NCBI GenBank assembly: GCA_002245135.1
Contig: NGBS01000885.1
Span: forward strand, 124,001-162,872
From: Proteromonas lacertae
Lineage: Eukaryota
Direction of reading: 5' to 3'
DNA: 38,872 bases
Shown: positions 2,011-38,872 of the stretch, in pieces
Position numbering within the stretch: position 1 is the first letter of the stretch
Layout: each line of letters begins with the position of its first letter
Translations under genes and position numbers: made by a program
Notes under the pieces: model-generated
What the model was told of the DNA's origin: nothing
Database searches by the model: none
Seen by the model: the letters and a program-made list of their open reading frames with translations, nothing else

Positions 2011-2042
<32 letters not shown>

Positions 2043-11743: not shown

Positions 11744-11774
11744 TTTTTAAATTTTGAAATAAATAGCTAATTAG

Positions 11775-12101: not shown

Positions 12102-12139
12102 AAATCAATAATAATTAATAAAATAATAACAAATGTCAT

Positions 12140-12273
12140 TTAATTACTCTTATTTTCTATTTGTACAGCTTCTCTAAAAGCGATATAAACAAATCCACCA
12201 TAAATAATCACAATGAAAAATCTACAGAAAAATTCTAGCCATGGATCAAATGATAGAGTCTTTGTAATACCTC

Positions 12274-12305
<32 letters not shown>

Positions 12306-13176: not shown

Positions 13177-14182
13177 ATGAATGAAAATACAAAAAAATTA
13201 AAATTTAGACAAAGAGTATTATGTTCTATTACTGCTGGAGGTTTTACCGTTTGTTTAACTACGCCTATAGAAGTAGTGAAGGTTCATATGCAGGTATGTA
13301 ATTACTATATTTTTTAAATAAATAGATGAAACCAGTTCATAAAGTGAAAATGAATCTTACTTATTTTAAAGATTTGGTTACATATCCTTTCAAATTGCTT
13401 TACAAAGTAGGAAGTGAAATGGGAATTCGTGCTTTATGGTCTGGTTTAGGATTATCATTTATTACTGTCGTTCCTTGTTCTGTTATGTATTTATCTTTGT
13501 ATGAAGTAGCTGTTCAAAAATTTCAAAGTTTAAAGTTAATAAAAGATCATAAATCATTAAACAATATTTCTCCATTTATTTGTGGTAGTTTAGTCAGAAT
13601 TTTTGAATCACCAGTTCTAACTCCTTTAGAAGTAGTAAGAATAAGACAACAAGCATAGTATATATATGTTATTATTATTATTATTATTGTAATAGTTTTA
13701 ATCCAAGCATTTTTGAGACTTACAGATATTGTTTAAAAGAAGCAAAAACAAAAGGATATAAAATCTTTTACAAGGGTTTCTTCAGTACTTTAATGAGAGA
13801 TATGTTCTGGGGAGGTTTGTATTGGCAAACATATACACTTACATCACATTATCTCAATAAAAGAAGTGAAATTAAGAAAATTAAGAAAAATTCATCCAAA
13901 AACAATTATAAACTAATCTCTTTCATATGTGGAGGAGTTGCTGGCTCTATTGGCACAATATTTGTCACTCCATTTGATACAGTTAAGACAGTTCAACAAA
14001 TTAATCGAGATGAAGCTGTAGATTTCATGACAGTAATAAAAGTGATGATTAAAAAGGAAGGAGTTATGTCTTTATTCAGAGGAACTGGTCCACGACTGTT
14101 TAAAGTATTTCCAACTTGTGCTATTTCAATTACTGTGTATGAAGTAGGAAAGAATTATTTTACTAAAAACAATAATAAATAA
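13177..14182 (+). CDS. Mitochondrial carrier family protein, SLC25A39/40 (Mtm1)-like
   Basis: Three PX[DE]XX[KR] motifs (TPIEVVK, TPLEVVR, TPFDTVK). GIRALWSGL and LMRDMFWGGLYW resemble SLC25A39/40. GT-AG introns at ~13294-13325 and ~13658-13696. Confidence 0.85.
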
Positions 14183-14628: not shown

Positions 14629-17600
14629 ATGAATTATCATTTTCTTAGGTTTATATTGCTACTACTGCTGTTCACACAAGTCAGCTGTAAAAATGCTATA
14701 AAAATTGGATTTTTAATGAATAATCCACACTCAAGTAGTGATGATGGTTATAGAGATGACTTCTTTAAGCAAGTCAACATCTCATCAACTTTTAAATATA
14801 CTGTAGATATAGTAAGTAAAGAAGTAGGTAGTAATGGACAAGGATTAGAAAAAGTATTATTGGATTATAAACAGAATGGCATTCTTAATATTTTCAATCT
14901 AGTCAAATTTGCGAATTATACCGAGATTAACACTCTGTTATCGGATAATGGTATGATATTGTGGAATATTCACCCTTTACCTGAAACACAGATATATAGC
15001 AATATCATATTCTTTGGATCAATATACAAAACACTGGAAAGATGTATATATTATATTATTTATTGTTTTACTGTTTTAGTGTACATTTATGCTAATGAAA
15101 ACCGAGACTGTGTATTTATTTATCAAAACTCTCATCCTTATGCTTCAGCCGTTAAAAAGATGTTGGAATATTTCCCAGTTCCTCCTCTAGAAATAATTGA
15201 ACTCCCTGAAACACCAACAGACTTAACAAATACAATATCCACATTGAAGAAATACCCATTAGTGAATCAAATAGGTTTTTCTTCCATAGTGTTAGTGAAG
15301 AATGCAATTTTGGCAGATTTAGTGAAAGCATATTATGACAATGGATTAGAAACCCAAGGAAATGATGGTGGATTTGATATCGATGTAATTCTTGAAGATG
15401 ACACAAATCCTTCAACATTAGCAACATCAGACCCAGAGTGGGAGTATATCAGGTTTGTATTAGCTTATAATCAAGATAAACCTGTCATAGACACAACATT
15501 ATTGACATCTGATGATAATCAAGTGGTTGTTCATAAACTGTATGAAAATATTGTTTTATATTATTATTTAATAGATTTATGTTATATAAAATGTTTGAAG
15601 CTGGTTATTTTAGATCAAAGACATTAGAATATCCAACTCTAATATACTCATTACATGATAGAAATGAAGATTTTGATGGTAGTAATACAATGACATTAAC
15701 ATCATATAATGTTATAATATATCCAATAATTGTTAATATATATACCACTACAAATGTATATACTTTATTATTCAATATAAAATCCACTTATGTTGAACAT
15801 ATGGGAAGACCAGAATTGATGAAGAATGTTTCTAGTCCTTTAAGTAAAGTGAATTATGTTCATTGTGTAGTTTTATTACATTATTTATCAGGTAATAACA
15901 ATTATTCAGAGAAAGCAGCATTAGTTGCTGAAATGCATCAAATTAGAAAATCTAATGAAGAAGTATATATATATATATTATTTAATGTTAATTAGGGTTT
16001 ATTGAAGATAACAGTTTATCCAATAATAATTGATTATAACAAACAATCCTTAAATGAAACAATGAAAATATTGAAATATTATTATGATTTAAATGTTTAT
16101 AATTTCATATTTACATCATTAACAATAGAAGATAGAAATCTATTAATTCAAAGTATATATAAATCATATTTTGTGTGTTTAAATAGAATTAAAATCAAAT
16201 GAAATGGAAGATATTCAAATAATGGCTGAAAGATATTCAACAGGTGTTGAATGTCAAGAGAAAATAGTTTACACTGGTTTATCATTTACAGTAAAAGCCA
16301 AATTTCTTTATATTAACGATTTAAGAAGTTCAACAGCTCCAGTAGCAATAATATCTAGTAGATTGAAATATGGAGAATTAACTTCGAATTATTTGAAGCA
16401 TATGTTGATGGAGAATGAAATAAAAGATATATATGAATATGTGATGAAAGATGATTCAATAGCTGAAGGATTTACAGCCATGTCTTATATTAGAATGCAT
16501 CTATTTGTAGATGATAATACAGAATCGAGTAATAAATTCTCAGGAAATGTGATTTTATGTTTAGAAAGTAGTTATGTTACATCCATATTAAATGCATATA
16601 AAGGATTATCTTTAGACCCATTAAAAACTTATGTGTTATACATAGCTGAATATGATGATAGAAATCCATTTATATTGGGTTATTACTCATTTGAACCATA
16701 TACATGGAATAGAGCCGATAAAGATTATTCTTTCATGAATACTATAAGTGAAATGGGTGGACATAATTCAATGTATATATCTTCGATGGAGTTTACTGCT
16801 TTTCATTCAGTTAAACTTTGGGATAAAGTAATTCGTAATTCAATGACATTGAAATTTGATTTATTAATTCAACAATTATTCACAGCAAGAATTGATACTA
16901 TTCATGGTCCATATAGTTTATCTGATTCTGGTTATTCTTACCAGTATATAGTAAAGAATGTAAAAGATAAAGCAGTAATGTCTTTAACAGATCAATTGGT
17001 TGAATCAAAAGCGAATTTACAGAGTTATTATTTTAATAATATAACAGGTGAAATGTGTGATTATAATAACTATATAACAGGAGGATCATTATTTATATCG
17101 AGTAGAAAAGAGTATTATATAGTGATTTTAGTTCCAATAAATGGATTTGATAGTAAAGAATCAATTGATATAGTTAGTAATATTTATTATGCAATTGATT
17201 TGATTAACACATTTGGAGGAATAGCGAATGGTATTTTAAGTCCATTATTGCCATTATATAAGAATAATATAACTGAAATAGAAGAAACATTGATAAATGA
17301 TTGTAAGAAAGAGAATGTAATAGCATTTTTAGGATTATTGAAAAAGAAAGAAGTAGAATATTTTAATCCAATATTACATAAGTATGATAAATTGTTGATA
17401 TTGTTTTATATCTATGAAGGTAATACATGTGAATCAAATATAATGGTTATATCTTTTTTCTGTTGATCTTAATATAATATATTTTCTTTAACTATCTCTT
17501 TTTTTTACTATTCTAGAGTAAATGAGAATAGTTTATATTTGACAATTGATACAATATTGAGTTTGACAAAGAATGTGATAATAATATATGATGATAAAGA

Positions 17601-20600
17601 TGAGTATAATAGTTTTTATTTATATATATAATAGATTTTCAATCTCATTAACTGAACAATCTAAGAATTATCTGATCTACAAAGGATATAATGATACAAC
17701 TTCCACAATAATAAAATCAGTAGGTTATGTAGATTTTAATGGAATTTGTACATCATATAAAAATCTTAATGAAAAAGTGGTATTTTTGGTTCTATCAATG
17801 GATGTAGATAATATAAAAACTAGTTATTCCAAATTTTATAGTAGATCTTGTTTAAATTCATATATGATCAATTATATATTTAGAGATAAATTTGACAAAA
17901 CTGATGCTTATCAATATTTTGTTTTTAGTTATAATCCACTTTCTACATCAAATTCTTTTAATAAACTAGTCCAAGATATAGAATTAGTTTCAGGAACAAA
18001 AGATTTAATCACTCAAAACTTCTTGAATGTTTATCAACCAATGAAAATATTGAGAGATGGATATTCAAAAATTGGTACTTTTAAGGTAGAATCCATGATG
18101 AATTATCTCCACAATTTAGAAATGAAAACAGCAGAATTGGATGGAGTGAAATTATCTGAATCTCATTATTATACCAAAGGATTTGCTATCATATTTTTAC
18201 CATGTGCAAGATCAGGTTTTATGGGTTGTATGGTGTTAGGTGATTTTGATCTCTTTGTGAATTATCCTTCACCAATGTATGGAAATGGATATGATACAAC
18301 AGTATTTATATAATGATTATTATTATTATTATAGATGTGGACAAACACTAGTAAAACATGCAATTTATTTTCATATGATATAAATAATATTTATAACAAT
18401 CCATTACATATTGGAATAATAATATCAAATGATAATTACCTAATAAAAGAACAAATAGAATTATTATTGAAATGGTCAGCAAACTATATAAGAAATGAAG
18501 ATTATCTAAACTCCAGAATAATTGTATATTTAATTGTTATTATTATTATTTATAGATTTATCATTATTATGAATGTCCAATGACTTCCTCCTTAATTGAA
18601 AAAATGGAAAATGATCAAAATGAATATAATATTCGAATCTTCATAGGTGGATGTGGAATAGATTCACTTCAACTATATTCTAACAGTTTATGTTTACAAA
18701 ATTCTATATTATTTTATACTGGAATAAATGAAGGAAATATTTGTAAAAAGAACATCTTCTTTGTATCTCCTTCACCTGATCAATTTATAAATTCAGCGAT
18801 GAAATTCTTATTATATGGATATGGAAGTAAAATCGCATTTATTTATGATAATAATGCAAGTAAAGAAAGTCAAAACAATCTAATTCTAAAAGCCATAAAA
18901 GAATTAGATATTCAAGTAATAAGTCATTTACAAATAGATTTAAATGAAAATGTTAATACTATAGCTTATAAAATAAACCAATTTATTGGTAATTTGGATT
19001 ACTATTCAAGTAGAAAAATAGATAATTTTTCAGATGCTTATATTATCTGTAATTTAGGTGATGATAAATTGAGATATTTCTTAAATAATTTAAATAATTA
19101 TAAGCTAAGTTATTATTATTACACATTCAATTTAGATAATTCATTTACTCAAAATAGAATTAGTATAAATTATTTCTTAATATCAGATATAATAAATCTA
19201 AAGAGTAACAAAATCATCAATTATATCAACAATGTATTAGGAAATGGTTATATAATGAATGGATATGAATTGAAGTATTTATTACCATTATTCTTGTTAT
19301 GTGAATCAATAAAAGACAGTTCTGTATTATCTAATTTTGATTCAACAGTAAATGAATTATATTCAAGTGATGGATTTGAAACGTTATTTGGGAAAGTAGT
19401 AGTTACTCAAGATAATGTGATAAGTCATCCACTAGCAATAAGTGCTTATAATAGTAATGGAATATTAACACATATGATGACTTTATTAGAACAATCCAAT
19501 GAAGCAAATGTATATATTGATTCAATATTACCAAAATCACTATACAGTTGTAACTGGCTTAGTTCAAGATCTGAGAAATACTATCGAACAGTGATAAATA
19601 TTGGTTTGTTATTATCATTAAGTGGATCTTATGCTAAACAAGATATTGCAATGTTATTATCATACATATTGATATGTAAAGTAATAAATGAGAAATACAA
19701 TGGAATAAGAGGATATATAATTTTACCAATAGTAAAAGATGTAAATTCTGATGTTAGTAAAGTAATTGGAGCTTTGGATGTATTTAAAGAAGAAAAGATA
19801 TCTTATATATTTGGATTAAGTAATTCCGAAATGCGAAATGAGATAAAAGAGAAATTATCTGAATATAAAATGATATTATTTTATCCTCATGATTATGAAG
19901 GATTAGAATGTAAAGAGAATATAGTATATGTTGGAATTCCATTTACATCCAGAACATTAATAAAATATTATATTGAAGGTGATTATTTAGAGACAAAATT
20001 TCGAGTTTTGATTTTATACAATGATGTAGAATACTGTCGAAAATCTAAAGATATATTGATAAGTGATTTATCGTCATTAAACATCAAAGTATTAAAATCA
20101 ATCAGAATATTAAAAGATGGAAGAAGTTATGAAGCCATAATCGAACAAGTATTTACATATTTAACTTCCAGTGGAATAATCATAGTAATGATGGAAACAG
20201 GTGAAATGCAATTTTTAGCTAAAGTATTTTATGAAAGTAAAATAGTAAGACCCAATTTCCGAATATATTATATTGGAGTTGATTATAATGTATTACCATT
20301 ATATTCTGGATATTTTGTGAATCAGTTGATAATGACAAGTAAGAAAGGAATAAAAGGAAATGAAATGAATGATTTGATAGTAGAATATTATAAAGATTTA
20401 TATCCATATTTAGTAGAATCCTATTATTCAACTAATAATATGTATTATTCAATAATAAGTGTATTAGCTTGGAAATCCATAATTGAGAATAAGAAATCAT
20501 TTTTATATGAAAATTTCATCAATTCAATAAGTGGAGTGAGTGTGAATTCTCCAATTGGAACATTAATGATAAATGAAAATCATATAATCTCAATTCCTTC

Positions 20601-23600
20601 GTTGATAATGACAATTCAAAACAAGAATTCTGTAGTCGATTTTAAAGTGTTATATGATTCTTCAACAGCTAGAATTCCCGATCCTTATTCAACTTATTTA
20701 ATAAGCGAAAATAAAAATATTTATAAATGTAGTTTTACCATTTCAATTAATAGTGAAAAATATTTGATAAATTATTTCCCATTATTTGTGATATTATCTC
20801 AAAAGAATGAAATTCATTTCTATCAAATGTTAGTAGCTTCAGCTGCGATAGTTGATGAGATAAATTTGAATGTTGAAACAACAAAGAAAGGTCGATTTCT
20901 GAATTTGATATATATATTCTACAATGATAATGATAATAAACTAAAAACTAAATTATTGAATGAAATAAATGAATTAGGAGTTGGAATAAAGAATGAAAAT
21001 GTGAATTTCTTGATGGTTGGATGTACAACCGATTATTGTCGAAATATAGCAGTTCGAATAACAGAAGAATATAATAGTTTATTGATAGTTAGTGGAAGAT
21101 TTATAGGTGAAAAATGTTATAAGAATGTATTTTATACCGGTCCAATAATCAATCAAGTAATTGATACAACAATCTCTTATATGGAAAATACAAATAAAGC
21201 AAACATAATCTTAATTAATACTCCAAATCCAAGTTGGGATAAATTCTATGAAGTATTTGTTAATTCAATCACATCTTCAATGAGAGTAGTTCAAAAGTTC
21301 AGTATGCAAGAAACTGAACGCTTTTCGATGGAAACAGTAAAACAATTAATCAATTCTTTAAGTGTAAGTAATGGAGGAATAATTGTTAGTTTCTTAAGTA
21401 AAAAGCCATTCTTTTCATTAATAGAAACTTTAGAGAAACTCAATCCTGATGAAAATAATTATTATATATTTTCAATGTCAATCTATGCTGATGAAGTTGA
21501 AAAGAAATATAATCGAATTCCTTATCAATTCTATTATGTTTCAAGTGTAGATAGTGCAGTAACAAGTAGTGATATAATTCAAAGAACTGAAGCTCGATTA
21601 TTGAAATATATTGGATTTTACAAAACAACTGATGATGGAATTTCCATGTCAATAGGAATAAATGCAATAATCAGTGCAATGAGTAATGCTGGTAGTTTAA
21701 ATTTGTTGATATTAAAACAATACTTATACAGTATATATCTAAATTCTGATCAAACTACTTGGTTTGATAAGAGTAATTATTTAGTTCGAGATATGTATGT
21801 ATATAAATACAGTGGAAAAGGAATAGAAGTAGTAAAAACAGTTCAAAGATCAATTCCTAAAGCATTTGATTGGAATGTTGCAGAAAATTATGGAAAAATG
21901 TGTGATACAACAACCTTAATAAATAATGAAAATATCAATAATGATGATGGTGGTGCAACATCCACAACAGAGATAATTCATGTGATATTAGTAACTTCAA
22001 ATTCAGGAATATATTATTCTGATTATGTAGGTATATCTGAAACATTTAAAGAAGCAATAATCCAATTAAATAATTTGGGAGGAATAAACAATAACAAACA
22101 AGTTGATTATTTAATAATTGATGATCAAAGTGATTCAACAATATGTTTTAACAGTTTAAATGAAGCGTTAAATACGAATGAATATGATGTGGTATTTAGT
22201 ACGAGTAATTCAATGTGTTTAGAAATGATATTACCCAAATTGAATGAAAAGAATATAAAACTATTTCATATTGGATTATTTGGAGGTGAAAGTTGTGAAA
22301 AGAATATAATTCATATTGGATTAGAACCAACCTCTATAGAAATCTATATAATGAGATTATTAAACCAAGGATTAAAGAATTTTGCAATAATTGGAACATC
22401 TGAATCTACTTCAATCAAATACAGTACATATGCTGAAAGATATATCGATTATTTGAAAGGAAGTGTGACATATTCCGTAAGTTTAGATGAGAATATAATG
22501 TCATTAAGTACAATAGCGAAGAATATAAAGACAATGTTACCAAGTGGAAATACAATTTTATTCTTTGGAAATGCTCGAATTCATTTATTATTATCTGAAG
22601 CTTTAGTTGATTTAGGTGTAACAACTGATGAATATGTTTTTTATTCATTCTCAACATGTGAAGAAGTAAGTCATTTGGCAGTATCAAATGGTTCAATAAA
22701 GAAATTATTACCATTCTTTTGTTTAAGACATTATTTAAACTCAATCGAATCAATTGGAAATATTGGATTTAAGAATATATTGAGATATCCATTACCAAGT
22801 GGTTTAGAAGTGAATGGATATCATGAATCAATGTATTCTTGTGTGTTATTTTGGGCTGAAACAATCAATCGATATTATTATTTAATAAGTGGAAAAGATG
22901 ATAAATCGATCAGAGATATAGGAATAGAATATTTCTACAAAAATGAATATACAACTCCAATAGGAAAATGGCAATTAGCAACAAATAACATAATCCAAAG
23001 AAGAACGTATGTAGGTCGATATTATAATGATGAAAATGGAAAAATAACAGTGAAAGCAATCGATGATAATGGAAGACCTAAAGCTTGGAAGAAGTTTATA
23101 AATACAGGATTATATAAATGTGTATTAAATGATACAAAGATAGGTTCAAAATACAAACAACCAAGTAACAAGATTGAGATAATAGCATCGTTGAATGGTC
23201 GAGATGAATTAAGAGGCCGAGAGATGGTAAGTGCGATATTATATGCAGTAGAAGAAATAAATACAAATGAAAATGGTTTAATAGGAAATCAGATTGAAGT
23301 AGATATAATTAGTAGTGATAGTGATTTAAAGAAATTAGATTCAATCAGTAAAGAAACCTCTGCATTAACAGGTGTAAATGCAATATTTGGTGGTTTATGG
23401 GATAAAGAATATAATATAATGATTCCTTATTTTAACAAAGCGAAGAAATTGTTATTTTATATGGGAATAGCGAAAGGTGAAAATTGTAATAGTTATGGAA
23501 TAGTGAATCAAGCTAATTTGAATCAATTACTTCATGCTTCTCGATCTACTTTATTGAGTTATTCAAAAGGATTTTGTATAATCTATAATGATAAAGATGA

Positions 23601-26600
23601 ATTTAGTTATGCCTCTAAAGAATTATTTTCAAGATATTTTGATTTATTGAAAAGAAAATATAATTTCTATATTTATAATGAGATAGTTAACAATGATGAA
23701 ATAAAGAATATAAAGAGTGATTATAATAAAGGTTGTGTAATAATGGATTTAGTGAATAATGAATTATCTTTATCTTTATCTGAATCATTATATTCTTTGG
23801 AATCATCTGAAGTAAATTTTGTATATATTCATTATTTTGTTGATGCATATGATACTAAAACAAATGAAAAATATTTTGAGAATCATATATTCTTTGGTTC
23901 TTGGTTTATAGCAGTTGGAACAGGAAGTGAAAGAAAATATGAAAAAGCGAATGAATTTTATATGAAAATGACAAATCGATTTGGTTCTTATTTCAAATTA
24001 GTTCAATCAACAGAAGCTGCTTATACAGCTGTAAAACTGTGGGAAATGGGAGTAAGAGAATCTTATAGTTTTGATCCAACATCAGTAAGAAAAGGAATGG
24101 TAGGAGTAAAGAAAGAGATAGGATCGAATTTTGTTGAATTAATGTCAAATAACTATATCTCTCGATCATTCTATGCAGCTAAAATAATGAATGGAAAAGT
24201 GGAGATAATAGCTAGTCCAACTGGTTTATTAGATCCAAATCCATTTTCTAGTGTAATGGAAGGAAATGAAGGTAAACAATGTGATTTTATAAATGAGAAT
24301 GGAATCTATATAAAATCCAATATAATTCATTTATTATTAATACTAGAGAAAGATTATCCTGTAAAAGAAGAAATAACAAATGCATATTTTGGATTTGATT
24401 ATTCTGTAGAATCTTCTAATTCAGTTGGTGGAATAAATGGTTATTATATAGTGTATGATAGTTTAATGTTGAATAGTGATGAGTTAGAAAACAAAACAAT
24501 GGAATATGTAAGTCGATTAGATGATAGTAAAAATGATAATAGTTTATACTATTTGGGAATATTTGGGTGTTTAGGAAGTGAATGTCGAAAAATGGTGAGT
24601 AAAATGAGTGAAGAATATAAAGTGATGTATTTCTATTTTGGTGAAAGTGAAGGTGAATATTTTTCTAAATATACTGTAACAGTAGGTAATACTCTAATTC
24701 AGAAAGTGAGTGTAGCAGCTGATTATTTGAAAGACAGATATAAGAATTTCTTTATATTGATAGATGAAGAAAATGAATATCTTTTTATTTTATTTTATTT
24801 ATGTTATATATATTTATAATCTTTAATTGAAGTTGATTATTTACAGAAGAATATTTTGGTCCATTTAATACAATATTCAACTCAGGAGAAATTCAATTAA
24901 CTAGTTTTACCATCTTATCTGAAACAGTTCATTGTGAAACAATAATGAGAAATTTTGCCAAATTAGTAAATATTTATGATCATTTAATAAGTATAATGTT
25001 TATATGTTTATTGTATTATTTATAGTTATAACAGCACTAAGTGAAGAACATTTAGCTGATTGTATTCCAGTATATAATAGTTACAAACTACAATCAAAGA
25101 GATTTTATTTATTATTTATGAATTACAATCATTATGCTTATCAATTATATGATTTGAAAGAGTTAAATGGATGTTATATTTCTGCATCATATCATGAAGA
25201 TATTAGTTCAATTTTGAATTATGCCTTTATAACAAATGCTCGAAATAATTATCGATCTGATTTTTATGTTTCAAGTGTATATGAAACAGCTTATTCAACA
25301 CTTACATATTATGAAGCAGCTGTAAATAGTGCAATTGCTCATTATAAAGAAGATATTGGTGATAATAAAGAAAATAATGAAGAAAATAATAATGAAACAT
25401 CATCAAATAGAGTATTATATTCAAATAATGATGATAATGAAATGAAAAAATCGTATATACATACAAGTATAAGAAGTATATATGAAGATAGAATATTAGA
25501 CACAATAATAATAAAACCAAATGAAACAGTCAGTTCTAATGATTCAAAAACAGTAAATAATAATTGGCCAAATAATGAATATATTCGATTATCTTTACCA
25601 TATTTAAAAGTGTCGTTACCTTCAGGAACATCATCACTTGATGATTCAAACTATGCAATTCGTTCAATGTATTTAATTGAGATAGGAAATGAAGGTCAAT
25701 TTATTCAAGTGTATCCTTCATTGGGAAATAGTAAACAATATCAACCAGTTCCATTTTCTAGTGGTAATATTGATGAACGAGATTATAATATAGCTGATGT
25801 AAGAATACTTGAATTAGATGAAGTATTAAAATATGCTTCACTTGGATTAGCTGGAATGAATATGATGTTAATAGTGTTAATAGTGATATTTGTGATAAAA
25901 TATCGACATAAAAGAATAATAAAATGTGTATCTCCTTTGTGGAATTATTTATATTTATTAAGTTATGTGATATGTATAGTTGGTTCAACAACGTTATATT
26001 TTACTCCTAGTAGTGGAAATAATAGTTTGTGTTATACTCGAATAATATTAATAATTTTTGGATTAACATGTGTAGAAAGTGTGATAATGGCGAAAGTGTT
26101 AAAATTGAAGCGAATAAAAAGAAATAAGATTCGAAAGATTCGAATTCGTGTGATGTCCTTTTTGTGGAATTTCTGTGTTGCTTTTATTCCCAATGCGTTA
26201 TTAGTGATATTATATATATTTGTAGCTCCTTCTGAGTATAATTTGAGATTAATAGATACAGAAAGTACATTTTTATTAAAGAGTTATGTAGAAGAATGTA
26301 GTGAGAATGATACATTTGTGTATAATAATAATAATAATAATATATATATAATAGGATAATTATTGGTGGTTGGAATGGAATTTATATGGCTTTAATGACA
26401 ATAATTTCATTTACAGTGCGAAAAGTGGAAGATGAATTTTCTGATTCAATGTCAATATTCCTTGTATGTCTATTGATATATATCTTTTTTAAAAAATGAA
26501 ATATTTAATAGATTTACCTTAATAATATTTTTTACTCTTTTTAATGTTAATATTATTCTGTTTAGAATATGTAACAAGTGATGATCAAAAATCTCTTTTA

Positions 26601-26834
26601 TTACTTCGAGGTTTAGGATATGGATTATTAATCTTATTAACATTAATAATCGAATATTTACCGAAAGTAATCTATTGTTTTTCAAGTGAAGAAGCCTTAG
26701 AATCTACGAACAGTTTAACGAATGATATTTCTAAGAGTAAAAGTATAGTAAATAAGACAACAACAACCATGATGACAAGCAGATCAGTTGTGACATTGAA
26801 TTCTCATAAAGATCCTTTAAAAAGAAAACATTAA
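14629..26834 (+). CDS. Giant (~3,905 aa) class C GPCR-like receptor with nine tandem UrtA/AmiC-like periplasmic-binding domains
   Basis: Signal peptide MNYHFLRFILLLLLFTQVSC. Introns: ~15043-15078 (in frame, optional), 15540-15574, 15963-15995, 16153-16186, 17449-17508 (AT-AC), 17604-17634, 18302-18334, 18524-18555, 24777-24844 (AT-AC), 24991-25025, 26320-26354, 26480-26535 (AT-AC). These give one frame of 11,718 nt. A repeated (Y/F)..EG.EC..NI.Y.G motif occurs in the ectodomain. The C-terminus has 7tm_3 hallmarks: KRIIKCVSP, LCYTR, IMAK, EEC, VRKVEDEFSDS, YLPKV. Confidence 0.85.
17449..17508 (+). other. U12-type AT-AC intron (60 nt, phase 0)
   Basis: 5' ATATCTTT, branch TTCTTTAAC, 3' TTTTTTAC. 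Gives NIMV|YSRVNE in frame. The nearby GT-AG option gives an immediate stop. Confidence 0.85.
24777..24844 (+). other. U12-type AT-AC intron (68 nt, phase 2)
   Basis: 5' ATATCTTT, branch-like ATCTTTAAT, 3' ATTTAC. Gives DEENE|EEYFGPF in frame with the next exon. Confidence 0.8.
26480..26535 (+). other. U12-type AT-AC intron (56 nt, phase 1) within TM6
   Basis: 5' ATATCTTT, branch TACCTTAAT, 3' TTTTTAC. Gives the continuous helix SIFLVCLLI|FFLMLILF. The GT-AG alternative runs into TAA. Confidence 0.85.
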
Positions 26835-26921: not shown

Positions 26922-29335
26922 CTGGGGTCGGCAGGACGGGGACAGGACGAGGGATAGGGACGGGACACGTCCCGGGACAAAACCCTATCGGGACGTCCAT
27001 TTCCTCACGCTCAACTACCAATATGAGATATTATTCTATAGAATCTTAAATTTTTTTTTAATTTTTGTAAAAAATAAATTAATAATAAAAAAGAAATATA
27101 ATTAATAAGTTGGGCTTTGTGGTGGTCTGATATATTCATCATAATCACTTTCTTCATCTTCATCATCATCTTCATCATAATCGTCATGGTCATAACTATC
27201 TTCATTTGTAGTTATTCTGTCATTCAGTTGTTTCATTTTTATTCTCATCATATTATTAATTAAACTAATATTGAGTTTGTTCCTTGTTTTATTATGAATA
27301 AATGACTCAATACTAAACGTTCTTTCAATATATGCAGAACTTGTAGGGATTATGTTTAGATAATCAAATATTCTTTTCAAGTTGGGAAAATAACATCCGT
27401 AGCTATTGTACCATATCTTCGGATTCATTTCCTTCGAATTATCAAAAATATCAGCTGGAGACCTTCCATATCTCATTCTATTTTCAAAATAATATAACTC
27501 TTCTGTAAGCTTTTTATCACAAATATGAGAAAATCTATTTAAAATGTATCTTTTTATACTATTAACAATTCTTTCATTAAATTTTTTGGAACTACTCACG
27601 TCTAAATACTCACTTAATATCAATATGCTATAATTGATTAGTTTCTTCTCTTTTTGATATATTACACTTATTTTTTCTTTTTCTGTGCTACTCATTCTAC
27701 ATAGATCCTTTTTAGCTTTAGAGAGTACTTTATATGCAAATGAAAGAGTAGAATTGTCTCTACTCAAATATTGAACTTTTTGGTATATATATTCTGTAAT
27801 ATTATATAATTCTTTAATTATAGGTATTTCATTCTTATCTAATAAGTTAATTCTTACAAGTATCTCTTGATTATCTAACACACCTTTAAAAAGCTGGAAG
27901 TAACTACTCCAGCGAGTAGTAACTCCCTTTCTTATTTGTATATACTTTTTCAATTTATTGAATATTATTGTTCTAATCGTAACTGACGTATTTAGCTTAT
28001 GAGCTATTGTATTACATTTATCTAAAATAGGTTTATATTTATTAAGCTCCAAAACTTTCTTGCAAACTAAATTAAGTGTGTGACTAATACAGCCACAAAT
28101 AATCACAGGAGTATTGTTTATACTCTGGATTATCTTGCCTACACGCTTCATGGTGTAGTTGTTGTCGCTGCTAACTGCCACAATTTTATCAAGAGTAATA
28201 CCATATTTTAATAACGTAGTCTCTATTAGTTTGACTATATTTTTGGCTGTTTCATTCTCATCAATAAATACTGATTCGAGAAAGTAAATATTAATTTGTT
28301 TCACAGCAATATTTATGATGGATCTATTATTTGTATTAGTCCATCCATCTATTATAATACACATTTTTTCATTGGGTTTAATGCATTCTTTTACTATCTT
28401 CTCACCTTCTTCTTTAATTATATCTTTAACAGACTTGATTGAACCAAGTTTCAATGGAAGGGTTGATAGATTTGATTAAGTTTTTAAATGTTTTTGATTC
28501 AATCAACTTAAAACTACATGAATTCTCTATAATAAAATCAGCTAAATAACCGTTAATCTTTCTCTGATTGTATTTTGTTAGATCCAGTTTTTCTTGAACA
28601 ATTTTACTTTTTTTGCAGCTAATAAATTATAATCTATATATATTATACTTTTTCACATGTCTTTTTAAGCAAGTGGCATGACATACAACCATTTCTTTAC
28701 ATGTTTTACATTCAATTCTTTTCGACTTTTCAGTAGGTTTGGTTATGCTTACGTTTGTATTGAAGTAGTTATATACTTGATCATAAGGTCTTTTTACTGC
28801 AGACATTATAAAATGCAGCTTGAAAAATTCAAGTTTTTTGATAATTTTATCTTATTCTCTATAAACAGTCAATACGATTTGATATTTTGTATTAAAATTT
28901 ATTTTATTAACATAACCCATGCAAATTAAAAAATATTTAAAAAATAGATAATTTATAATTAGCTATAATTAATGTATGTTATATTTGATGTATAATTATA
29001 TATAATAACTAATTACTATTAATTAATGCATTTAAATCATATTCAGAGGTTATTCAGACCATATTATTTTGATCATTAGAAAACATATGATTATTGCATC
29101 ATATAATTATATATATGTCCTTATTAACTATATTTCAGACTATTTATGCCATAATTATGAAAAATGAAACCAAAAAATATCGGGACAGAGAAAATATGCT
29201 CTACCGCTTACTCCTTACGGATTATACTGTCCTTGGACAAAATGGACAGGTTCGATTTCCGTACAGAGGAAGCGAGAGTGGAACGGGACAGGGGACGGGA
29301 CAAAAGCAAAAAGGACGTCCCTCTGCCGACCCCAG
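26922..29335 (-). mobile_element. hAT-superfamily DNA transposon (2,414 bp) with 13-bp TIRs and 8-bp TSD
   Basis: TIR CTGGGGTCGGCAG at 26922-26934 and its reverse complement at 29323-29335. Direct repeat TTGTGACA at 26914-26921 and 29336-29343. GGGAC/GGAC subterminal repeats at both ends and an internal hAT transposase. Confidence 0.95.
27102..28806 (-). pseudogene. hAT transposase with BED zinc finger, 30-nt intron and a 1-nt frameshift near 28456
   Basis: ATG at 28806: MSAVKRP...ECKTCKEMVVCHATCLKRHVK|NC (intron 28619-28648), then LADFIIENSCSFKLIESKTFKNLIKSINPS. It then shifts frame into ORF 27102-28454, which has IDGWT, SSDN, CISH, TRWSS and SSAYIERTFS (DDE core and dimerisation domain). 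The frameshift may be a sequencing error. Confidence 0.8.
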
Positions 29336-29485
29336 TTGTGACATGGTTTTATTATTCAAACACAATCGAGGTATGATGAATCTCACTCTTTTCTCAACAT
29401 CAAATGTTATTATTAAAAAAACACATTTCAAAAACAAAATAATATATATCTAAACTTTTAACATCTACATCACTATTTTAGTATC

Positions 29486-32400
29486 TAACATATAATCATA
29501 ATATAAAAATTAATGTTTTCTTTTTAAAGGATCTTTATGAGAATTCAATGTCACAACTGATCTGCTTGTCATCATGGTTGTTGTTGTCTTATTTACTATA
29601 CTTTTACTCTTAGAAATATCATTCGTTAAACTGTTCGTAGATTCTAAGGCTTCTTCACTTGAAAAACAATAGATTACTTTCGGTAAATATTCGATTATTA
29701 ATGTTAATAAGATTAATAATCCATATCCTAAACCTCGAAGTAATAAAAGAGATTTTTGATCATCACTTGTTACATATTCTAAACAGAATAATATTAACAT
29801 TAAAAAGAGTAAAAAATATTATTAAGGTAAATCTATTAAATATTTCATTTTTTAAAAAAGATATATATCAATAGACATACAAGGAATATTGACATTGAAT
29901 CAGAAAATTCATCTTCCACTTTTCGCACTGTAAATGAAATTATTGTCATTAAAGCCATATAAATTCCATTCCAACCACCAATAATTATCCTATTATATAT
30001 ATATTATTATTATTATTATTATACACAAATGTATCATTCTCACTACATTCTTCTACATAACTCTTTAATAAAAATGTACTTTCTGTATCTATTAATCTCA
30101 AATTATACTCAGAAGGAGCTACAAATATATATAATATCACTAATAACGCATTGGGAATAAAAGCAACACAGAAATTCCACAAAAAGGACATCACACGAAT
30201 TCGAATCTTTCGAATCTTATTTCTTTTTATTCGCTTCAATTTTAACACTTTCGCCATTATCACACTTTCTACACATGTTAATCCAAAAATTATTAATATT
30301 ATTCGAGTATAACACAAACTATTATTTCCACTACTAGGAGTAAAATATAACGTTGTTGAACCAACTATACATATCACATAACTTAATAAATATAAATAAT
30401 TCCACAAAGGAGATACACATTTTATTATTCTTTTATGTCGATATTTTATCACAAATATCACTATTAACACTATTAACATCATATTCATTCCAGCTAATCC
30501 AAGTGAAGCATATTTTAATACTTCATCTAATTCAAGTATTCTTACATCAGCTATATTATAATCTCGTTCATCAATATTACCACTAGAAAATGGAACTGGT
30601 TGATATTGTTTACTATTTCCCAATGAAGGATACACTTGAATAAATTGACCTTCATTTCCTATCTCAATTAAATACATTGAACGAATTGCATAGTTTGAAT
30701 CATCAAGTGATGATGTTCCTGAAGGTAACGACACTTTTAAATATGGTAAAGATAATCGAATATATTCATTATTTGGCCAATTATTATTTACTGTTTTTGA
30801 ATCATTAGAACTGACTGTTTCATTTGGTTTTATTATTATTGTGTCTAATATTCTATCTTCATATATACTTCTTATACTTGTATGTATATACGATTTTTTC
30901 ATTTCATTATCATCATTATTTGAATATAATACTCTATTTGATGATGTTTCATTATTATTTTCTTCATTATTTTCTTTATTATCACCAATATCTTCTTTAT
31001 AATGAGCAATTGCACTATTTACAGCTGCTTCATAATATGTAAGTGTTGAATAAGCTGTTTCATATACACTTGAAACATAAAAATCAGATCGATAATTATT
31101 TCGAGCATTTGTTATAAAGGCATAATTCAAAATTGAACTAATATCTTCATGATATGATGCAGAAATATAACATCCATTTAACTCTTTCAAATCATATAAT
31201 TGATAAGCATAATGATTGTAATTCATAAATAATAAATAAAATCTCTTTGATTGTAGTTTGTAACTATTATATACTGGAATACAATCAGCTAAATGTTCTT
31301 CACTTAGTGCTGTTATAACTATAAATAATACAATAAACATATAAACATTATACTTATTAAATGATCATAAATATTTACTAATTTGGCAAAATTTCTCATT
31401 ATTGTTTCACAATGAACTGTTTCAGATAAGATGGTAAAACTAGTTAATTGAATTTCTCCTGAGTTGAATATTGTATTAAATGGACCAAAATATTCTTCTG
31501 TAAATAATCAACTTCAATTAAAGATTATAAATATATATAACATAAATAAAATAAAATAAAAAGATATTCATTTTCTTCATCTATCAATATAAAGAAATTC
31601 TTATATCTGTCTTTCAAATAATCAGCTGCTACACTCACTTTCTGAATTAGAGTATTACCTACTGTTACAGTATATTTAGAAAAATATTCACCTTCACTTT
31701 CACCAAAATAGAAATACATCACTTTATATTCTTCACTCATTTTACTCACCATTTTTCGACATTCACTTCCTAAACACCCAAATATTCCCAAATAGTATAA
31801 ACTATTATCATTTTTACTATCATCTAATCGACTTACATATTCCATTGTTTTGTTTTCTAACTCATCACTATTCAACATTAAACTATCATACACTATATAA
31901 TAACCATTTATTCCACCAACTGAATTAGAAGATTCTACAGAATAATCAAATCCAAAATATGCATTTGTTATTTCTTCTTTTACAGGATAATCTTTCTCTA
32001 GTATTAATAATAAATGAATTATATTGGATTTTATATAGATTCCATTCTCATTTATAAAATCACATTGTTTACCTTCATTTCCTTCCATTACACTAGAAAA
32101 TGGATTTGGATCTAATAAACCAGTTGGACTAGCTATTATCTCCACTTTTCCATTCATTATTTTAGCTGCATAGAATGATCGAGAGATATAGTTATTTGAC
32201 ATTAATTCAACAAAATTCGATCCTATCTCTTTCTTTACTCCTACCATTCCTTTTCTTACTGATGTTGGATCAAAACTATAAGATTCTCTTACTCCCATTT
32301 CCCACAGTTTTACAGCTGTATAAGCAGCTTCTGTTGATTGAACTAATTTGAAATAAGAACCAAATCGATTTGTCATTTTCATATAAAATTCATTCGCTTT

Positions 32401-35400
32401 TTCATATTTTCTTTCACTTCCTGTTCCAACTGCTATAAACCAAGAACCAAAGAATATATGATTCTCAAAATATTTTTCATTTGTTTTAGTATCATATGCA
32501 TCAACAAAATAATGAATATATACAAAATTTACTTCAGATGATTCCAAAGAATATAATGATTCAGATAAAGATAAAGATAATTCATTATTCACTAAATCCA
32601 TTATTACACAACCTTTATTATAATCACTCTTTATATTCTTTATTTCATCATTGTTAACTATCTCATTATAAATATAGAAATTATATTTTCTTTTCAATAA
32701 ATCAAAATATCTTGAAAATAATTCTTTAGAGGCATAACTAAATTCATCTTTATCATTATAGATTATACAAAATCCTTTTGAATAACTCAATAAAGTAGAT
32801 CGAGAAGCATGAAGTAATTGATTCAAATTAGCTTGATTCACTATTCCATAACTATTACAATTTTCACCTTTCGCTATTCCCATATAAAATAACAATTTCT
32901 TCGCTTTGTTAAAATAAGGAATCATTATATTATATTCTTTATCCCATAAACCACCAAATATTGCATTTACACCTGTTAATGCAGAGGTTTCTTTACTGAT
33001 TGAATCTAATTTCTTTAAATCACTATCACTACTAATTATATCTACTTCAATCTGATTTCCTATTAAACCATTTTCATTTGTATTTATTTCTTCTACTGCA
33101 TATAATATCGCACTTACCATCTCTCGGCCTCTTAATTCATCTCGACCATTCAACGATGCTATTATCTCAATCTTGTTACTTGGTTGTTTGTATTTTGAAC
33201 CTATCTTTGTATCATTTAATACACATTTATATAATCCTGTATTTATAAACTTCTTCCAAGCTTTAGGTCTTCCATTATCATCGATTGCTTTCACTGTTAT
33301 TTTTCCATTTTCATCATTATAATATCGACCTACATACGTTCTTCTTTGGATTATGTTATTTGTTGCTAATTGCCATTTTCCTATTGGAGTTGTATATTCA
33401 TTTTTGTAGAAATATTCTATTCCTATATCTCTGATCGATTTATCATCTTTTCCACTTATTAAATAATAATATCGATTGATTGTTTCAGCCCAAAATAACA
33501 CACAAGAATACATTGATTCATGATATCCATTCACTTCTAAACCACTTGGTAATGGATATCTCAATATATTCTTAAATCCAATATTTCCAATTGATTCGAT
33601 TGAGTTTAAATAATGTCTTAAACAAAAGAATGGTAATAATTTCTTTATTGAACCATTTGATACTGCCAAATGACTTACTTCTTCACATGTTGAGAATGAA
33701 TAAAAAACATATTCATCAGTTGTTACACCTAAATCAACTAAAGCTTCAGATAATAATAAATGAATTCGAGCATTTCCAAAGAATAAAATTGTATTTCCAC
33801 TTGGTAACATTGTCTTTATATTCTTCGCTATTGTACTTAATGACATTATATTCTCATCTAAACTTACGGAATATGTCACACTTCCTTTCAAATAATCGAT
33901 ATATCTTTCAGCATATGTACTGTATTTGATTGAAGTAGATTCAGATGTTCCAATTATTGCAAAATTCTTTAATCCTTGGTTTAATAATCTCATTATATAG
34001 ATTTCTATAGAGGTTGGTTCTAATCCAATATGAATTATATTCTTTTCACAACTTTCACCTCCAAATAATCCAATATGAAATAGTTTTATATTCTTTTCAT
34101 TCAATTTGGGTAATATCATTTCTAAACACATTGAATTACTCGTACTAAATACCACATCATATTCATTCGTATTTAACGCTTCATTTAAACTGTTAAAACA
34201 TATTGTTGAATCACTTTGATCATCAATTATTAAATAATCAACTTGTTTGTTATTGTTTATTCCTCCCAAATTATTTAATTGGATTATTGCTTCTTTAAAT
34301 GTTTCAGATATACCTACATAATCAGAATAATATATTCCTGAATTTGAAGTTACTAATATCACATGAATTATCTCTGTTGTGGATGTTGCACCACCATCAT
34401 CATTATTGATATTTTCATTATTTATTAAGGTTGTTGTATCACACATTTTTCCATAATTTTCTGCAACATTCCAATCAAATGCTTTAGGAATTGATCTTTG
34501 AACTGTTTTTACTACTTCTATTCCTTTTCCACTGTATTTATATACATACATATCTCGAACTAAATAATTACTCTTATCAAACCAAGTAGTTTGATCAGAA
34601 TTTAGATATATACTGTATAAGTATTGTTTTAATATCAACAAATTTAAACTACCAGCATTACTCATTGCACTGATTATTGCATTTATTCCTATTGACATGG
34701 AAATTCCATCATCAGTTGTTTTGTAAAATCCAATATATTTCAATAATCGAGCTTCAGTTCTTTGAATTATATCACTACTTGTTACTGCACTATCTACACT
34801 TGAAACATAATAGAATTGATAAGGAATTCGATTATATTTCTTTTCAACTTCATCAGCATAGATTGACATTGAAAATATATAATAATTATTTTCATCAGGA
34901 TTGAGTTTCTCTAAAGTTTCTATTAATGAAAAGAATGGCTTTTTACTTAAGAAACTAACAATTATTCCTCCATTACTTACACTTAAAGAATTGATTAATT
35001 GTTTTACTGTTTCCATCGAAAAGCGTTCAGTTTCTTGCATACTGAACTTTTGAACTACTCTCATTGAAGATGTGATTGAATTAACAAATACTTCATAGAA
35101 TTTATCCCAACTTGGATTTGGAGTATTAATTAAGATTATGTTTGCTTTATTTGTATTTTCCATATAAGAGATTGTTGTATCAATTACTTGATTGATTATT
35201 GGACCGGTATAAAATACATTCTTATAACATTTTTCACCTATAAATCTTCCACTAACTATCAATAAACTATTATATTCTTCTGTTATTCGAACTGCTATAT
35301 TTCGACAATAATCGGTTGTACATCCAACCATCAAGAAATTCACATTTTCATTCTTTATTCCAACTCCTAATTCATTTATTTCATTCAATAATTTAGTTTT

Positions 35401-38400: not shown

Positions 38401-38872
38401 GATTATAACTAAAAACAAAATATTGATAAGCATCAGTTTTGTCAAATTTATCTCTAAATATATAATTGATCATATATGAATTTAAACAAGATCTACTATA
38501 AAATTTGGAATAACTATTTTATATTATCTACATCCATTGATAGAACCAAAAATACACTTTTTCATTAAGATTTTTATATGATGTACAAATTCCATTAAAA
38601 TCTACATAACCTACTGATTTTATTATGTGGAAGTGTATCATTATATCCTTTGTAGATCAGATAATTCTTAGATTGTTCAGTTAATGAGATTGAAAATCTA
38701 TTATATATATAAATAAAAACTATTATACTCATCTTATCATCATATATTATTATCACATTCTTTGTCAAACTCAATATTGTATCAATTGTCAAATATAAAC
38801 TATTCTCATTTACTCTAGAATAGTAAAAAAAGAGATAGTTAAAGAAAATATATTATATTAAGATCAACAGAA
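29486..38872 (-). repeat. Right arm of the inverted repeat (runs off the window)
   Basis: Appears identical to the left arm up to ~35950. Small indels then increase, for a net ~14 bp shorter by the window end. Confidence 0.97.
29510..38872 (-). CDS. Second (inverted) copy of the giant multi-PBP GPCR, 5'-partial, with apparent frameshifts distally
   Basis: Mirror ORFs 29510-29800, 29985-31340 and 31525-35904 translate identically to copy 1. AT-AC introns are mirrored at 29809-29864 and 31500-31567. Indels at ~35950, ~36028, ~37322 and several beyond 38075. Confidence 0.75.

What the first reader, a model, noticed from the sequence alone, without database searches (positions are those of the whole stretch)
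14629..26834. Giant GPCR with nine tandem bacterial-type solute-binding (UrtA/AmiC-like) domains
Seen: after splicing, one ~3,900-aa frame runs from a signal peptide to a 7TM domain. A motif recurs about every 390-400 aa: PETQIYSNIIFFG (degenerate), GVECQEKIVYTG, YEGNTCESNIMV, NEGNICKKNIFF, FYPHDYEGLECKENIVYVG, GEKCYKNVFYTGPIINQ, GESCEKNIIHIG, GENCNSYG, SEGEYFSKYTVTVG. Most are preceded by an IG.L.SLSG......A...IN..GG-type start. Known: YP..YEG.E.S.NI.YTG..PNQ typifies bacterial urea/short-chain amide binding proteins (UrtA/FmdD/AmiC). Canonical class C GPCRs (GABA-B, mGluR, CaSR) have one Venus-flytrap domain. Inference: a receptor chaining nine diverged ligand clamps, possibly laterally acquired, to one signalling domain. 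It could be a multi-metabolite sensor for the host or gut environment. I know of no characterised receptor like this. The ORF track splits it into at least nine pieces, so automated annotation would probably miss it.
Basis: partly seen in the sequence, partly recalled or inferred. Interest (0 to 1): 0.92.

Follow-up and report, generated by a model that had tools for sequence, protein, structure and literature searches.

The report
Nine-clamp giant G-protein-coupled receptor
A single-celled eukaryote carries a gene predicted to encode one 3,917-residue surface receptor in which nine diverged copies of a bacterial urea-binding clamp, predicted to pack into one rigid array, sit on a GABA-B-like signalling domain; it likely senses small molecules other than urea, and it belongs to a large receptor family that we could not find described.

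Summary
Confirmed and extended. Twelve predicted exons at 14629-26834 give one stop-free 3,917-aa frame: signal peptide, nine ~385-aa type I periplasmic-binding (PBP) repeats, and a class C 7TM (Pfam 7tm_3 above cut-off). Three of the 11 introns are AT-AC minor-spliceosome type. No RNA was available, but unspliced relatives show the same layout: P0007 (signal peptide, repeats 1-8), P0039 (repeats 3-9 plus 7TM), P0037 (nine repeats plus a full 7TM). The repeats match bacterial UrtA (profile E 1e-49; predicted fold TM 0.87); no animal Venus-flytrap domain was hit by sequence. No repeat keeps more than 3 of 8 urea-pocket residues, so this is probably not a urea sensor, whereas five repeats of GC-richer P0037 keep all 8. 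Repeat order is conserved in 32 of 37 independent relatives, and AlphaFold places repeats 6-8 confidently together (pTM 0.84): likely a fixed, rigid array rather than loose beads. Ligands, expression and G-protein coupling are untested. The organism is likely a Proteromonas-like gut stramenopile (inferred). Swapped bacterial ligand domains on class C receptors are known; this tandem architecture was not found in seven literature searches. New variant of a known kind.

The parts
14629..26834 (+). Receptor gene, 12 predicted exons (14629-15539, 15575-15962, 15996-16152, 16187-17448, 17509-17603, 17635-18301, 18335-18523, 18556-24776, 24845-24990, 25026-26319, 26355-26479, 26536-26834); 3,917 aa
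   Evidence: junctions 8-11 collinear with unspliced paralogue P0038
14629..14688 (+). Predicted signal peptide (aa 1-20, by hydropathy only)
   Evidence: P0007 starts alike
14692..15848 (+). Repeat 1, most diverged PBP domain (aa ~22-395)
15855..17079 (+). Repeat 2 (aa 398-783)
   Evidence: close relative P0072
17107..18382 (+). Repeat 3 (aa 793-1176)
18398..19572 (+). Repeat 4 (aa 1182-1562)
19588..20751 (+). Repeat 5 (aa 1568-1955): most UrtA-like, best-conserved pocket, best candidate ligand site
   Evidence: TIGR03407 86 bits; AlphaFold pLDDT 85, TM 0.87 to UrtA 7S6E
20764..21924 (+). Repeat 6 (aa 1960-2346); pocket not conserved; extra position-specific cysteine pair
21970..23142 (+). 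Repeat 7 (aa 2362-2752); keeps UrtA S122, N246, S274 equivalents; extra cysteine pair
23161..24303 (+). Repeat 8 (aa 2759-3139)
24319..25789 (+). Repeat 9, membrane-proximal (aa ~3145-3600), with an Asn/Glu-rich insertion near 25343-25579; runs into TM1 without a cysteine-rich domain
25823..26678 (+). Class C 7TM domain (aa 3612-3866)
   Evidence: Pfam 7tm_3 55.1 bits; nearest solved chains GABA-B and GPR156, weak
26679..26831 (+). Short Ser/Thr-rich cytoplasmic tail (aa 3867-3917)
17449..17508 (+). Intron 4: predicted AT-AC minor (U12-type) intron; GT-AG alternatives exist
24777..24844 (+). Intron 8: predicted AT-AC minor intron at a position shared by many relatives
26480..26535 (+). Intron 11: predicted AT-AC minor intron inside TM6
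26922..29335 (-). hAT DNA transposon between the two gene copies, 13-nt terminal inverted repeats, 8-nt target duplication
29441..38872 (-). Inverted second copy of the gene from intron 4 to the stop codon, cut by the window end; recent duplicate or assembly artefact

Best explanation
The sequence shows a signal peptide, nine UrtA-type clamp domains and a class C seven-helix domain in one predicted spliced frame; this likely makes a cell-surface G-protein-coupled receptor whose clamps are predicted to pack into one rigid array, with a few of them (likely repeats 5 and 7) binding small molecules that are likely not urea. Shown by calls: domain content and order, UrtA-type sequence, loss of the urea pocket, a large family with a fixed repeat order. 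Predicted: splicing (three AT-AC introns), the clamp fold, one disulfide per repeat, packing of repeats 6-8. Inferred from class C biology: closure of a liganded clamp is passed through domain-domain contacts to repeat 9, which joins TM1 directly as in GABA-B, and the 7TM (probably as a dimer) activates a heterotrimeric G protein. Inferred history: a urea-binding protein of the Synechococcus-like UrtA subfamily entered eukaryotes, was multiplied in tandem on a class C 7TM, and in this AT-rich lineage the array froze at nine positions while paralogues multiplied and their pockets diverged, giving a receptor repertoire.
For: One frame; splice junctions 8-11 align to unspliced P0038; P0007 = signal peptide + repeats 1-8 + start of 9 in one ORF; P0039 = repeats 3-9 + 7tm_3 in one ORF; P0037 = 9 Peripla_BP_5 stretches + 7tm_3 positions 7-251 in one ORF. 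13 of 29 AT-rich relatives scanned in Pfam carry 7tm_3 in the same ORF, 11 above the cut-off (3 of the 29 were picked for having helices). UrtA type: profile of 8 sequences hits UrtA structures at E 1e-49 to 3e-39, AmiC 1e-15, LivJ ~0.2, no eukaryotic Venus flytrap among the 18 hits at E<=1; repeats 4-8 hit TIGR03407; Foldseek ranks UrtA 1-6, AmiC 7-10, first mGluR rank 27. Cysteine pair in 168 of 196 AT-rich repeats, 14 of 17 GC-richer tandem repeats, 11 of 98 other UrtA-like rows; these fall in one branch (SH-aLRT 93) with Synechococcus UrtA. Fixed order: 32 of 37 multi-repeat relatives outside the training set show consecutive positions; spacing median 385 aa, range 358-420, n=207. Packing: pLDDT 88.7, pTM 0.84 for repeats 6-8. 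Pocket conservation 0.64 vs 0.50 background over repeats 5-8 in five related proteins, 0.78 vs 0.49 in repeat 5. 7TM keeps Lys in TM3, Asp before TM6, Pro-Lys in TM7 and the TM3-loop cysteines, as do GABA-B-like relatives (their roles are recalled). G-alpha genes (7), class C 7TM (116) and PBP-I (182) are counted for Proteromonas lacertae in PMC12129017 Table S5.
Against: No ligand, transcript or G-protein data. No repeat keeps W120, Q144 or Y190, and across distant paralogues the pocket positions vary freely, which also fits dead pockets. Pocket conservation was not above background in 2 of 3 pooled tests (P 0.11, 0.14) nor in repeats 6, 7, 8 alone (P 0.47, 0.09, 0.19); the sequences are related and buried sites are conserved anyway. 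pTM is a prediction without inter-domain error values and covers three of nine repeats. The 7TM match to solved receptors is weak (E 0.008-0.1). The window's repeats are very long branches (2.8-3.5), and FastTree pulled them outside all bacterial rows. The organism is not identified; if it were Blastocystis, all eight tabulated strains have no G-alpha. 5 of 37 relatives did not show consecutive order.
Confidence: 0.58

Rival explanations
1. Same protein, but the clamps are mostly dead: the array is a rigid stalk, adhesin or surface coat that contacts large partners (bacteria, host surface, other cells) or senses force, and signals through the 7TM like an adhesion receptor.
For: Urea pocket gone in all nine repeats; residues conserved across 42 relatives are glycines, cysteines and core aromatics, not pocket residues; fixed order and predicted rigid packing; 17 extracellular N-glycosylation sequons; a large paralogue family suits surface variation.
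Against: Repeat 5 pocket positions are more conserved than background among close relatives (P 0.008); GC-richer relatives keep complete pockets in the same architecture, so the design began as a ligand binder.
Confidence: 0.28
2. A ligand-independent or G-protein-independent 7TM protein (as GPR156 or a silent partner subunit such as GABA-B2), acting only in heterodimers with paralogues.
For: Nearest solved 7TM chains include GABA-B2 and GPR156; the Trp-Arg of TM3 in relatives is Leu-Lys here; many paralogues are available as partners.
Against: Those matches are weak and reflect what is solved; core class C residues remain.
Confidence: 0.09
3. It still senses urea or short amides, using a remodelled pocket.
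For: UrtA ancestry; repeat 5 keeps S122, Y141, E146 equivalents and repeat 7 S122, N246, S274.
Against: In UrtA, loss of any of S122, Q144, Y190, N246, or of W120, strongly lowers or abolishes binding (PMC10392092, passages); every repeat lacks W120, Q144 and Y190.
Confidence: 0.04
4. Several neighbouring genes, a pseudogene or an assembly artefact rather than one receptor.
For: No RNA evidence; the window has an inverted near-identical copy with indels, so the assembly is imperfect here; no full-length relative above 3,629 aa in the word-index search (weak).
Against: Stop-free frame with ordinary short introns; relatives at 74-77% identity over 2,000 aa; unspliced relatives cover every junction between domains.
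Confidence: 0.01

Closest known systems
Class C GPCRs of animals, GABA-B type (Pfam 7tm_3 + ANF_receptor)
   Same: 7tm_3 domain, signal peptide, type I PBP fold outside, no cysteine-rich domain between clamp and TM1.
   Different: Nine clamps instead of one; the clamps are of UrtA sequence type and the repeat profile hit no animal Venus flytrap at E<=1; no solved chain matches more than one repeat (best TMq 0.31 for the three-repeat model).
Bacterial urea-binding protein UrtA (TIGR03407; PDB 7S6E, 7S6F, 8HIC, 8TG1) and AmiC (1PEA)
   Same: Fold (TM 0.80-0.87), the EG.EC..NI.Y.G motif and, for the Synechococcus type, a cysteine pair.
   Different: About 20% identity, far below the family cut-off (86 bits at best vs 492.75); urea pocket lost; fused in tandem to a eukaryotic receptor rather than serving an ABC transporter.
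Protist and fungal class C GPCRs with swapped bacterial ligand domains (Dictyostelium Grl with BMP domain; chytrid and gut-fungal receptors with SBP_bac_1, OpuAC, LysR_substrate)
   Same: Repeated fusion of bacterial solute-binding domains to 7tm_3, with lineage-specific expansions (PMC3251606, PMC5168858, PMC10445921; passages).
   Different: In the passages read these have other domain families and N-termini up to about 1,670 aa; none is described as UrtA-type or as a tandem array. Ectodomain here is about 3,600 aa.
Unnamed GC-richer tandem-UrtA receptors found here (P0037, P0077, P0102)
   Same: Tandem UrtA repeats joined by the same short linker, then 7tm_3.
   Different: Repeats are close to bacterial UrtA; 5 of 9 in P0037 keep all 8 pocket residues; repeat number varies (2 in P0102, at least 3, at least 9); their repeats do not map to the nine positions. 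Uncharacterised, organisms unknown.
Entamoeba EhVFT
   Same: Bacterial-like Venus-flytrap domain at the surface of a gut protist, possibly laterally acquired (PMC12965686, abstract and passages).
   Different: Single domain, GPI-anchored, no 7TM.

Membership tests
Class C (glutamate family) GPCR | 7tm_3 domain with seven helices | tested here: met
   55.1 bits vs cut-off 33.5 on one exon; seven segments; spliced domain collinear with relatives scoring up to 130 bits
Class C (glutamate family) GPCR | Large N-terminal extracellular region with signal peptide and a PBP-fold (Venus flytrap) domain | tested here: met
   signal peptide by hydropathy only
Class C (glutamate family) GPCR | Single ANF_receptor-type flytrap as in mGluR, CaSR, GABA-B | tested here: not met
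   nine domains of Peripla_BP_5/UrtA type; so not a member of these animal subfamilies
Class C (glutamate family) GPCR | Conserved TM3 Lys, acidic residue before TM6, TM7 Pro-Lys, TM3-loop 2 cysteines (motif roles recalled) | tested here: met
   alignment with GABA-B2 and with family 7TMs
Class C (glutamate family) GPCR | Dimerisation and coupling to a heterotrimeric G protein | not testable with these tools
   no genome held; G-alpha is counted in Proteromonas but not Blastocystis
mGluR/CaSR/TAS1R subfamily | Nine-cysteine domain between flytrap and TM1 | tested here: not met
   no such Pfam hit; repeat 9 runs into TM1
UrtA urea-binding protein (TIGR03407) | Type I PBP fold closest to UrtA | tested here: met
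   predicted models of repeat 5 and repeats 6-8; repeats 1-4 and 9 not folded
UrtA urea-binding protein (TIGR03407) | Score above the curated cut-off | tested here: not met
   19-86 bits vs 492.75 for repeats 4-8; no hit for the pieces of repeats 1 and 2
UrtA urea-binding protein (TIGR03407) | Pocket residues W120, S122, Y141, Q144, E146, Y190, N246, S274 | tested here: not met
   at most 3 of 8 in each of nine repeats by two alignments (residues from PMC10392092); mapping unsure for repeats 1-2
Minor (U12-type) introns | AT-AC ends, ATATCCTT-like donor, branch sequence close to the acceptor | tested here: met
   3 matches in the gene, 0 on the other strand, mean 0.01 in 300 first-order Markov simulations (pattern was written after seeing the introns)
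Minor (U12-type) introns | Spliced out in mRNA by the minor spliceosome | not testable with these tools
   no RNA holder listed; no genome to search for U11/U12 RNA

The most novel reading that the evidence does not exclude
An undescribed branch of class C GPCRs built on a laterally acquired urea-binding protein: in some eukaryotes (P0037 type) it is the first urea-sensing GPCR, and in this lineage it became a nine-position rigid allosteric array in which different clamps read different metabolites and one 7TM integrates them, multiplied into a repertoire of dozens of receptors that Blastocystis lost together with its G proteins.
Probability: 0.3. Interest if true: 0.92.

Novelty: new variant of a known kind. 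Interest (0 to 1): 0.8.

Why it matters
Every characterised class C receptor that we know of (recalled) has one ligand clamp per chain. A conserved nine-clamp chain on one 7TM asks how a signal can cross up to eight domains, and whether one receptor can add up several inputs. It offers a natural experiment on the long-proposed origin of class C receptors from bacterial binding proteins: here the donor subfamily is still recognisable, and relatives span intact urea pockets (P0037) to fully remodelled ones. P0037-type repeats make 'is there a urea-sensing GPCR?' directly testable, and would be scaffolds for biosensors. The family likely explains the tabulated 116 class C 7TM and 182 PBP-I entries of Proteromonas and their absence from Blastocystis. 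AT-AC introns inside a domain of bacterial origin must have been gained after the transfer, which bears on whether minor introns are still being created.

Tried and rejected
Expression: no RNA holder listed, so no reads could be laid; this is no evidence either way. No genome is held, so G-alpha/beta/gamma, paralogues and U11/U12 RNAs could not be sought. Word-index searches for relatives longer than 3,628 aa and for single-domain relatives of repeat 8 found nothing; the profile search then found both kinds, so those blanks were a sensitivity limit. Alternative genetic codes gave no longer frames that would replace splicing. GT-AG/GC-AG alternatives: for intron 11 the only one deletes TM6, for intron 8 the only one replaces about 30 core residues (127.0 vs 135.3 bits); for intron 4 six exist and one scores nearly as well (99.4 vs 100.7 bits). 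My first guess, Blastocystis (short introns, AT-AC introns), was dropped as less likely after Table S5 showed no class C GPCR or G-alpha in eight strains. Rfam found nothing in the window. The careful repeat tree did not finish; the quick tree is used. No complex prediction was run. Earlier findings of this scan: none returned. The Proteromonas genome paper is not in the library and may mention this expansion.
Full report
The window is 26% G+C and eukaryotic in build: genes broken by very short A+T-rich introns, among them a TIP41-like gene and a mitochondrial carrier. No genome is held and no RNA run was listed, so the gene model rests on sequence and on relatives.

Gene model. From the ATG at 14629, removal of 11 introns gives 11,754 nt, 3,917 residues and a TAA ending at 26834, with no internal stop. 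Eight introns are GT-AG and 31-35 nt long. Three (17449-17508, 24777-24844, 26480-26535; 56-68 nt) begin ATATCTTT, hold a branch-like sequence near their end and end in AC, as minor-spliceosome introns do. An enumeration of single in-frame introns shows that for intron 11 the only GT-AG choice deletes TM6 and for intron 8 it replaces part of the domain core; intron 4 has six GT-AG alternatives, one almost as good by profile score. The donor-branch-AC pattern occurs three times in the gene, never on the other strand, and 0.01 times per simulated sequence (the pattern was written after seeing the introns). Relatives agree: 20 genomic ORFs of the family end at the position of intron 8, and 9 of the 20 run on as Tyr-Pro-Phe or Tyr-Leu-Phe, which is what this donor encodes when read through; the close relative P0072 ends just after the intron 4 site; the unspliced paralogue P0038 aligns across junctions 8-11 with at most one-residue gaps. 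AT-AC introns are common in Blastocystis ST1 (PMC10639083 and PMC5608401, passages).

Domains. A profile made from related repeats only, with no window sequence, finds nine domains of about 385 residues; repeat 1 is weak (i-E 1e-5) but is backed by a shuffle control and by the ESM Atlas. The window's repeats are about 15-26% identical to each other, some pairs with repeat 1 not alignable. Pfam gives Peripla_BP_5 (266 bits, six stretches in the long exon) and 7tm_3 (55.1 bits, cut-off 33.5). Seven hydrophobic segments follow repeat 9 directly, without a cysteine-rich domain. The nearest solved 7TM chains are GABA-B subunits and GPR156, at weak E-values.

One polypeptide. The first search returned eight relatives, two at 74-77% identity over 2,000 residues. 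A profile search of 1.84 billion representatives returned 2,786 proteins at E<=0.001, of which the best 150 were listed. Together these give 52 A+T-biased multi-repeat proteins. P0007 has a signal peptide, repeats 1-8 and the start of 9 in one ORF; P0039 has repeats 3-9 and 7tm_3 in one ORF. These two paralogues, about 20% identical to the window's protein, cover all domain junctions without any splicing. 13 of the 29 A+T-biased relatives scanned in Pfam carry 7tm_3 in the same ORF; many of the rest stop at an intron position. P0037, of different composition, has nine repeats (the first incomplete, so at least nine) and a complete 7tm_3 in 3,745 residues. None of the multi-repeat 7TM proteins looked up had a name beyond 'urea transport system substrate-binding protein' for P0077.

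What the repeats are. The repeat profile matches solved UrtA at E 1e-49, AmiC at 1e-15 and Leu/Ile/Val-binding proteins near 0.2; no eukaryotic flytrap is among the 18 hits at E<=1. AlphaFold folds repeat 5 at pLDDT 85 (the alignment held bacterial UrtA-like rows, which may bias the model towards them), and Foldseek ranks UrtA first (TM 0.87), AmiC next, mGluR5 at rank 27. The three-repeat model, folded with family members only, gives the same ranking. Two cysteines, one in the EG.EC motif and one at the domain end, are kept in 168 of 196 A+T-biased repeats but in only 11 of 98 other UrtA-like rows, among them Synechococcus UrtA P0075; a disulfide is inferred. In a 38-row mixture-model tree the family's repeats (SH-aLRT 97) and the GC-richer tandem repeats (87) both lie in a branch (93) with these cysteine-pair proteins. 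Holding all 19 tandem repeats together gave a higher likelihood and was not rejected (p-AU 0.80); this allows one origin but does not show it. The window's branches are very long, FastTree placed them outside all bacterial rows, and the bacterial rows are only those the search returned. The 7TM tree did not separate the two groups cleanly.

The pocket. UrtA binds urea with S122, Q144, Y190 and N246, helped by W120, Y141, E146 and S274 (PMC10392092, passages). By two alignments no window repeat keeps more than 3 of these 8, and none keeps W120, Q144 or Y190; no A+T-biased repeat of 196 keeps more than 4, while 55 of 98 other rows and 5 of 9 repeats of P0037 keep all 8. So urea sensing is likely for P0037-type proteins and unlikely here. 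Among close relatives the pocket positions are more conserved than the rest in repeat 5 (0.78 vs 0.49, P 0.008) and in one of three pooled tests, not in repeats 6-8 alone; among distant paralogues they vary freely. This fits either a diversified repertoire or partly dead pockets.

The array is ordered. Repeats group by position, not by gene. With position-specific profiles, 32 of 37 multi-repeat relatives outside the eight training proteins show consecutive positions; five do not, mostly at weakly scored repeats; seven had a single full repeat. Spacing is tight (median 385, range 358-420, n=207), and repeats 6 and 7 carry their own extra cysteine pairs. AlphaFold models repeats 6-8 at pLDDT 88.7 and pTM 0.84; independent domains would be expected to score far lower (my inference; no inter-domain error map was given). 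No solved chain matches more than one repeat. A rigid array gives a physical route from a distal clamp to the membrane; it equally suits a stalk or adhesin.

Organism. Not determined. Table S5 of PMC12129017 (rows seen) counts 116 class C 7TM, 182 PBP-I, 7 G-alpha and 2 U11/U12-25K entries for Proteromonas lacertae and no class C 7TM or G-alpha in any of eight Blastocystis strains. An A+T-rich genome with short introns, AT-AC introns and a large PBP-7tm_3 family fits a Proteromonas-like gut stramenopile; this is inference.

Neighbourhood. An inverted copy of the gene from intron 4 to just past the stop lies at 29441-38872 (99.6%). It is identical over 6,458 nt, introns included; 20 differences, 16 of them one-base indels, crowd towards the window end (13, 5 and 2 per kb), as read errors at a contig end would. 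The 3' flanks differ from about 18 nt after the stop. Between the copies sits a hAT transposon with an 8-nt target duplication. A recent duplication and a fold-back artefact cannot be told apart without reads; neither affects the complete copy.

Comparison with what is known. Class C receptors with swapped bacterial binding domains are described in chytrids, gut fungi and Dictyostelium (PMC3251606, PMC5168858, PMC10445921; passages); Entamoeba has a single GPI-anchored flytrap (PMC12965686; abstract and passages). Seven searches of open-access full text, of which I saw the listings, showed no description of tandem or UrtA-type clamps on a GPCR; 7tm_3 with Peripla_BP_5 and Proteromonas with GPCR each returned 0 papers. 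PMC5447177 (passages) was not relevant. Subscription papers, including the Proteromonas genome paper, were not seen. The ESM Atlas's nearest large clusters to P0077 are single-flytrap diatom receptors of about 800-900 residues.

Verdict. The feature is real: a class C-type 7TM receptor with nine UrtA-derived domains in a fixed order, member of a large family. It is not a member of the UrtA family in function, nor of the animal class C subfamilies. It most likely works as a GPCR with a rigid multi-clamp ectodomain in which some clamps bind ligands other than urea (0.58); a mainly structural ectodomain is the main rival (0.28). New variant of a known kind; interest 0.8.

Noticed in passing
window 29441-38872 (-): Inverted, tail-to-tail copy of the receptor gene, identical over 6,458 nt and indel-rich towards the window end; recent duplication or assembly fold-back.
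   Followed up: partly
window 26922-29335: hAT transposon (DUF659 + Dimer_Tnp_hAT, upstream frames with a zinc-finger-like cysteine pattern) with terminal inverted repeats and an 8-nt target duplication; looks recent.
   Followed up: partly
window 5029-11089 (+): Three tandem paralogues (84-90% DNA identity) and a probable fourth, diverged one, of a multi-pass membrane protein of about 320-360 aa with no Pfam or PDB sequence hit; copies differ by indels in loop-like stretches.
   Followed up: partly
P0210, P0081, P0211, P0212: Two tandem UrtA repeats, a cysteine-rich stretch, one helix and a cytoplasmic glutaminase domain in one protein, cluster of 46 members: a possible urea-regulated receptor enzyme.
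   Followed up: no
P0037, P0077, P0102: GC-richer tandem-UrtA + 7tm_3 proteins with intact urea pockets in several repeats; candidates for urea-sensing GPCRs; organisms unknown.
   Followed up: partly
P0100, P0101, P0113, P0096: A+T-biased single UrtA-like domains with the cysteine pair, three with N-terminal hydrophobic helices; origin unknown.
   Followed up: no
P0063, P0082, P0179: Bacterial-type proteins with two UrtA domains flanking HEAT repeats and/or an NB-ARC/NACHT-like NTPase; not tandem and not in the eukaryotic branch.
   Followed up: no
window 24777-24844: The minor-intron position in repeat 9 is shared by 20 ORF ends of the family and absent from others such as P0038 and P0039: gain and loss of a U12-type intron inside a domain of bacterial origin.
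   Followed up: partly
window 2-1354 (+), 1652-3091 (-), ~3790-4650 (+), ~11150-12700 (-), ~13300-14182 (+): Neighbours: an unassigned protein with a Thr/Ser-rich stalk, a low-complexity protein, a TIP41-like gene, a DUF2053 membrane gene and a mitochondrial carrier; no evident link to the receptor.
   Followed up: no
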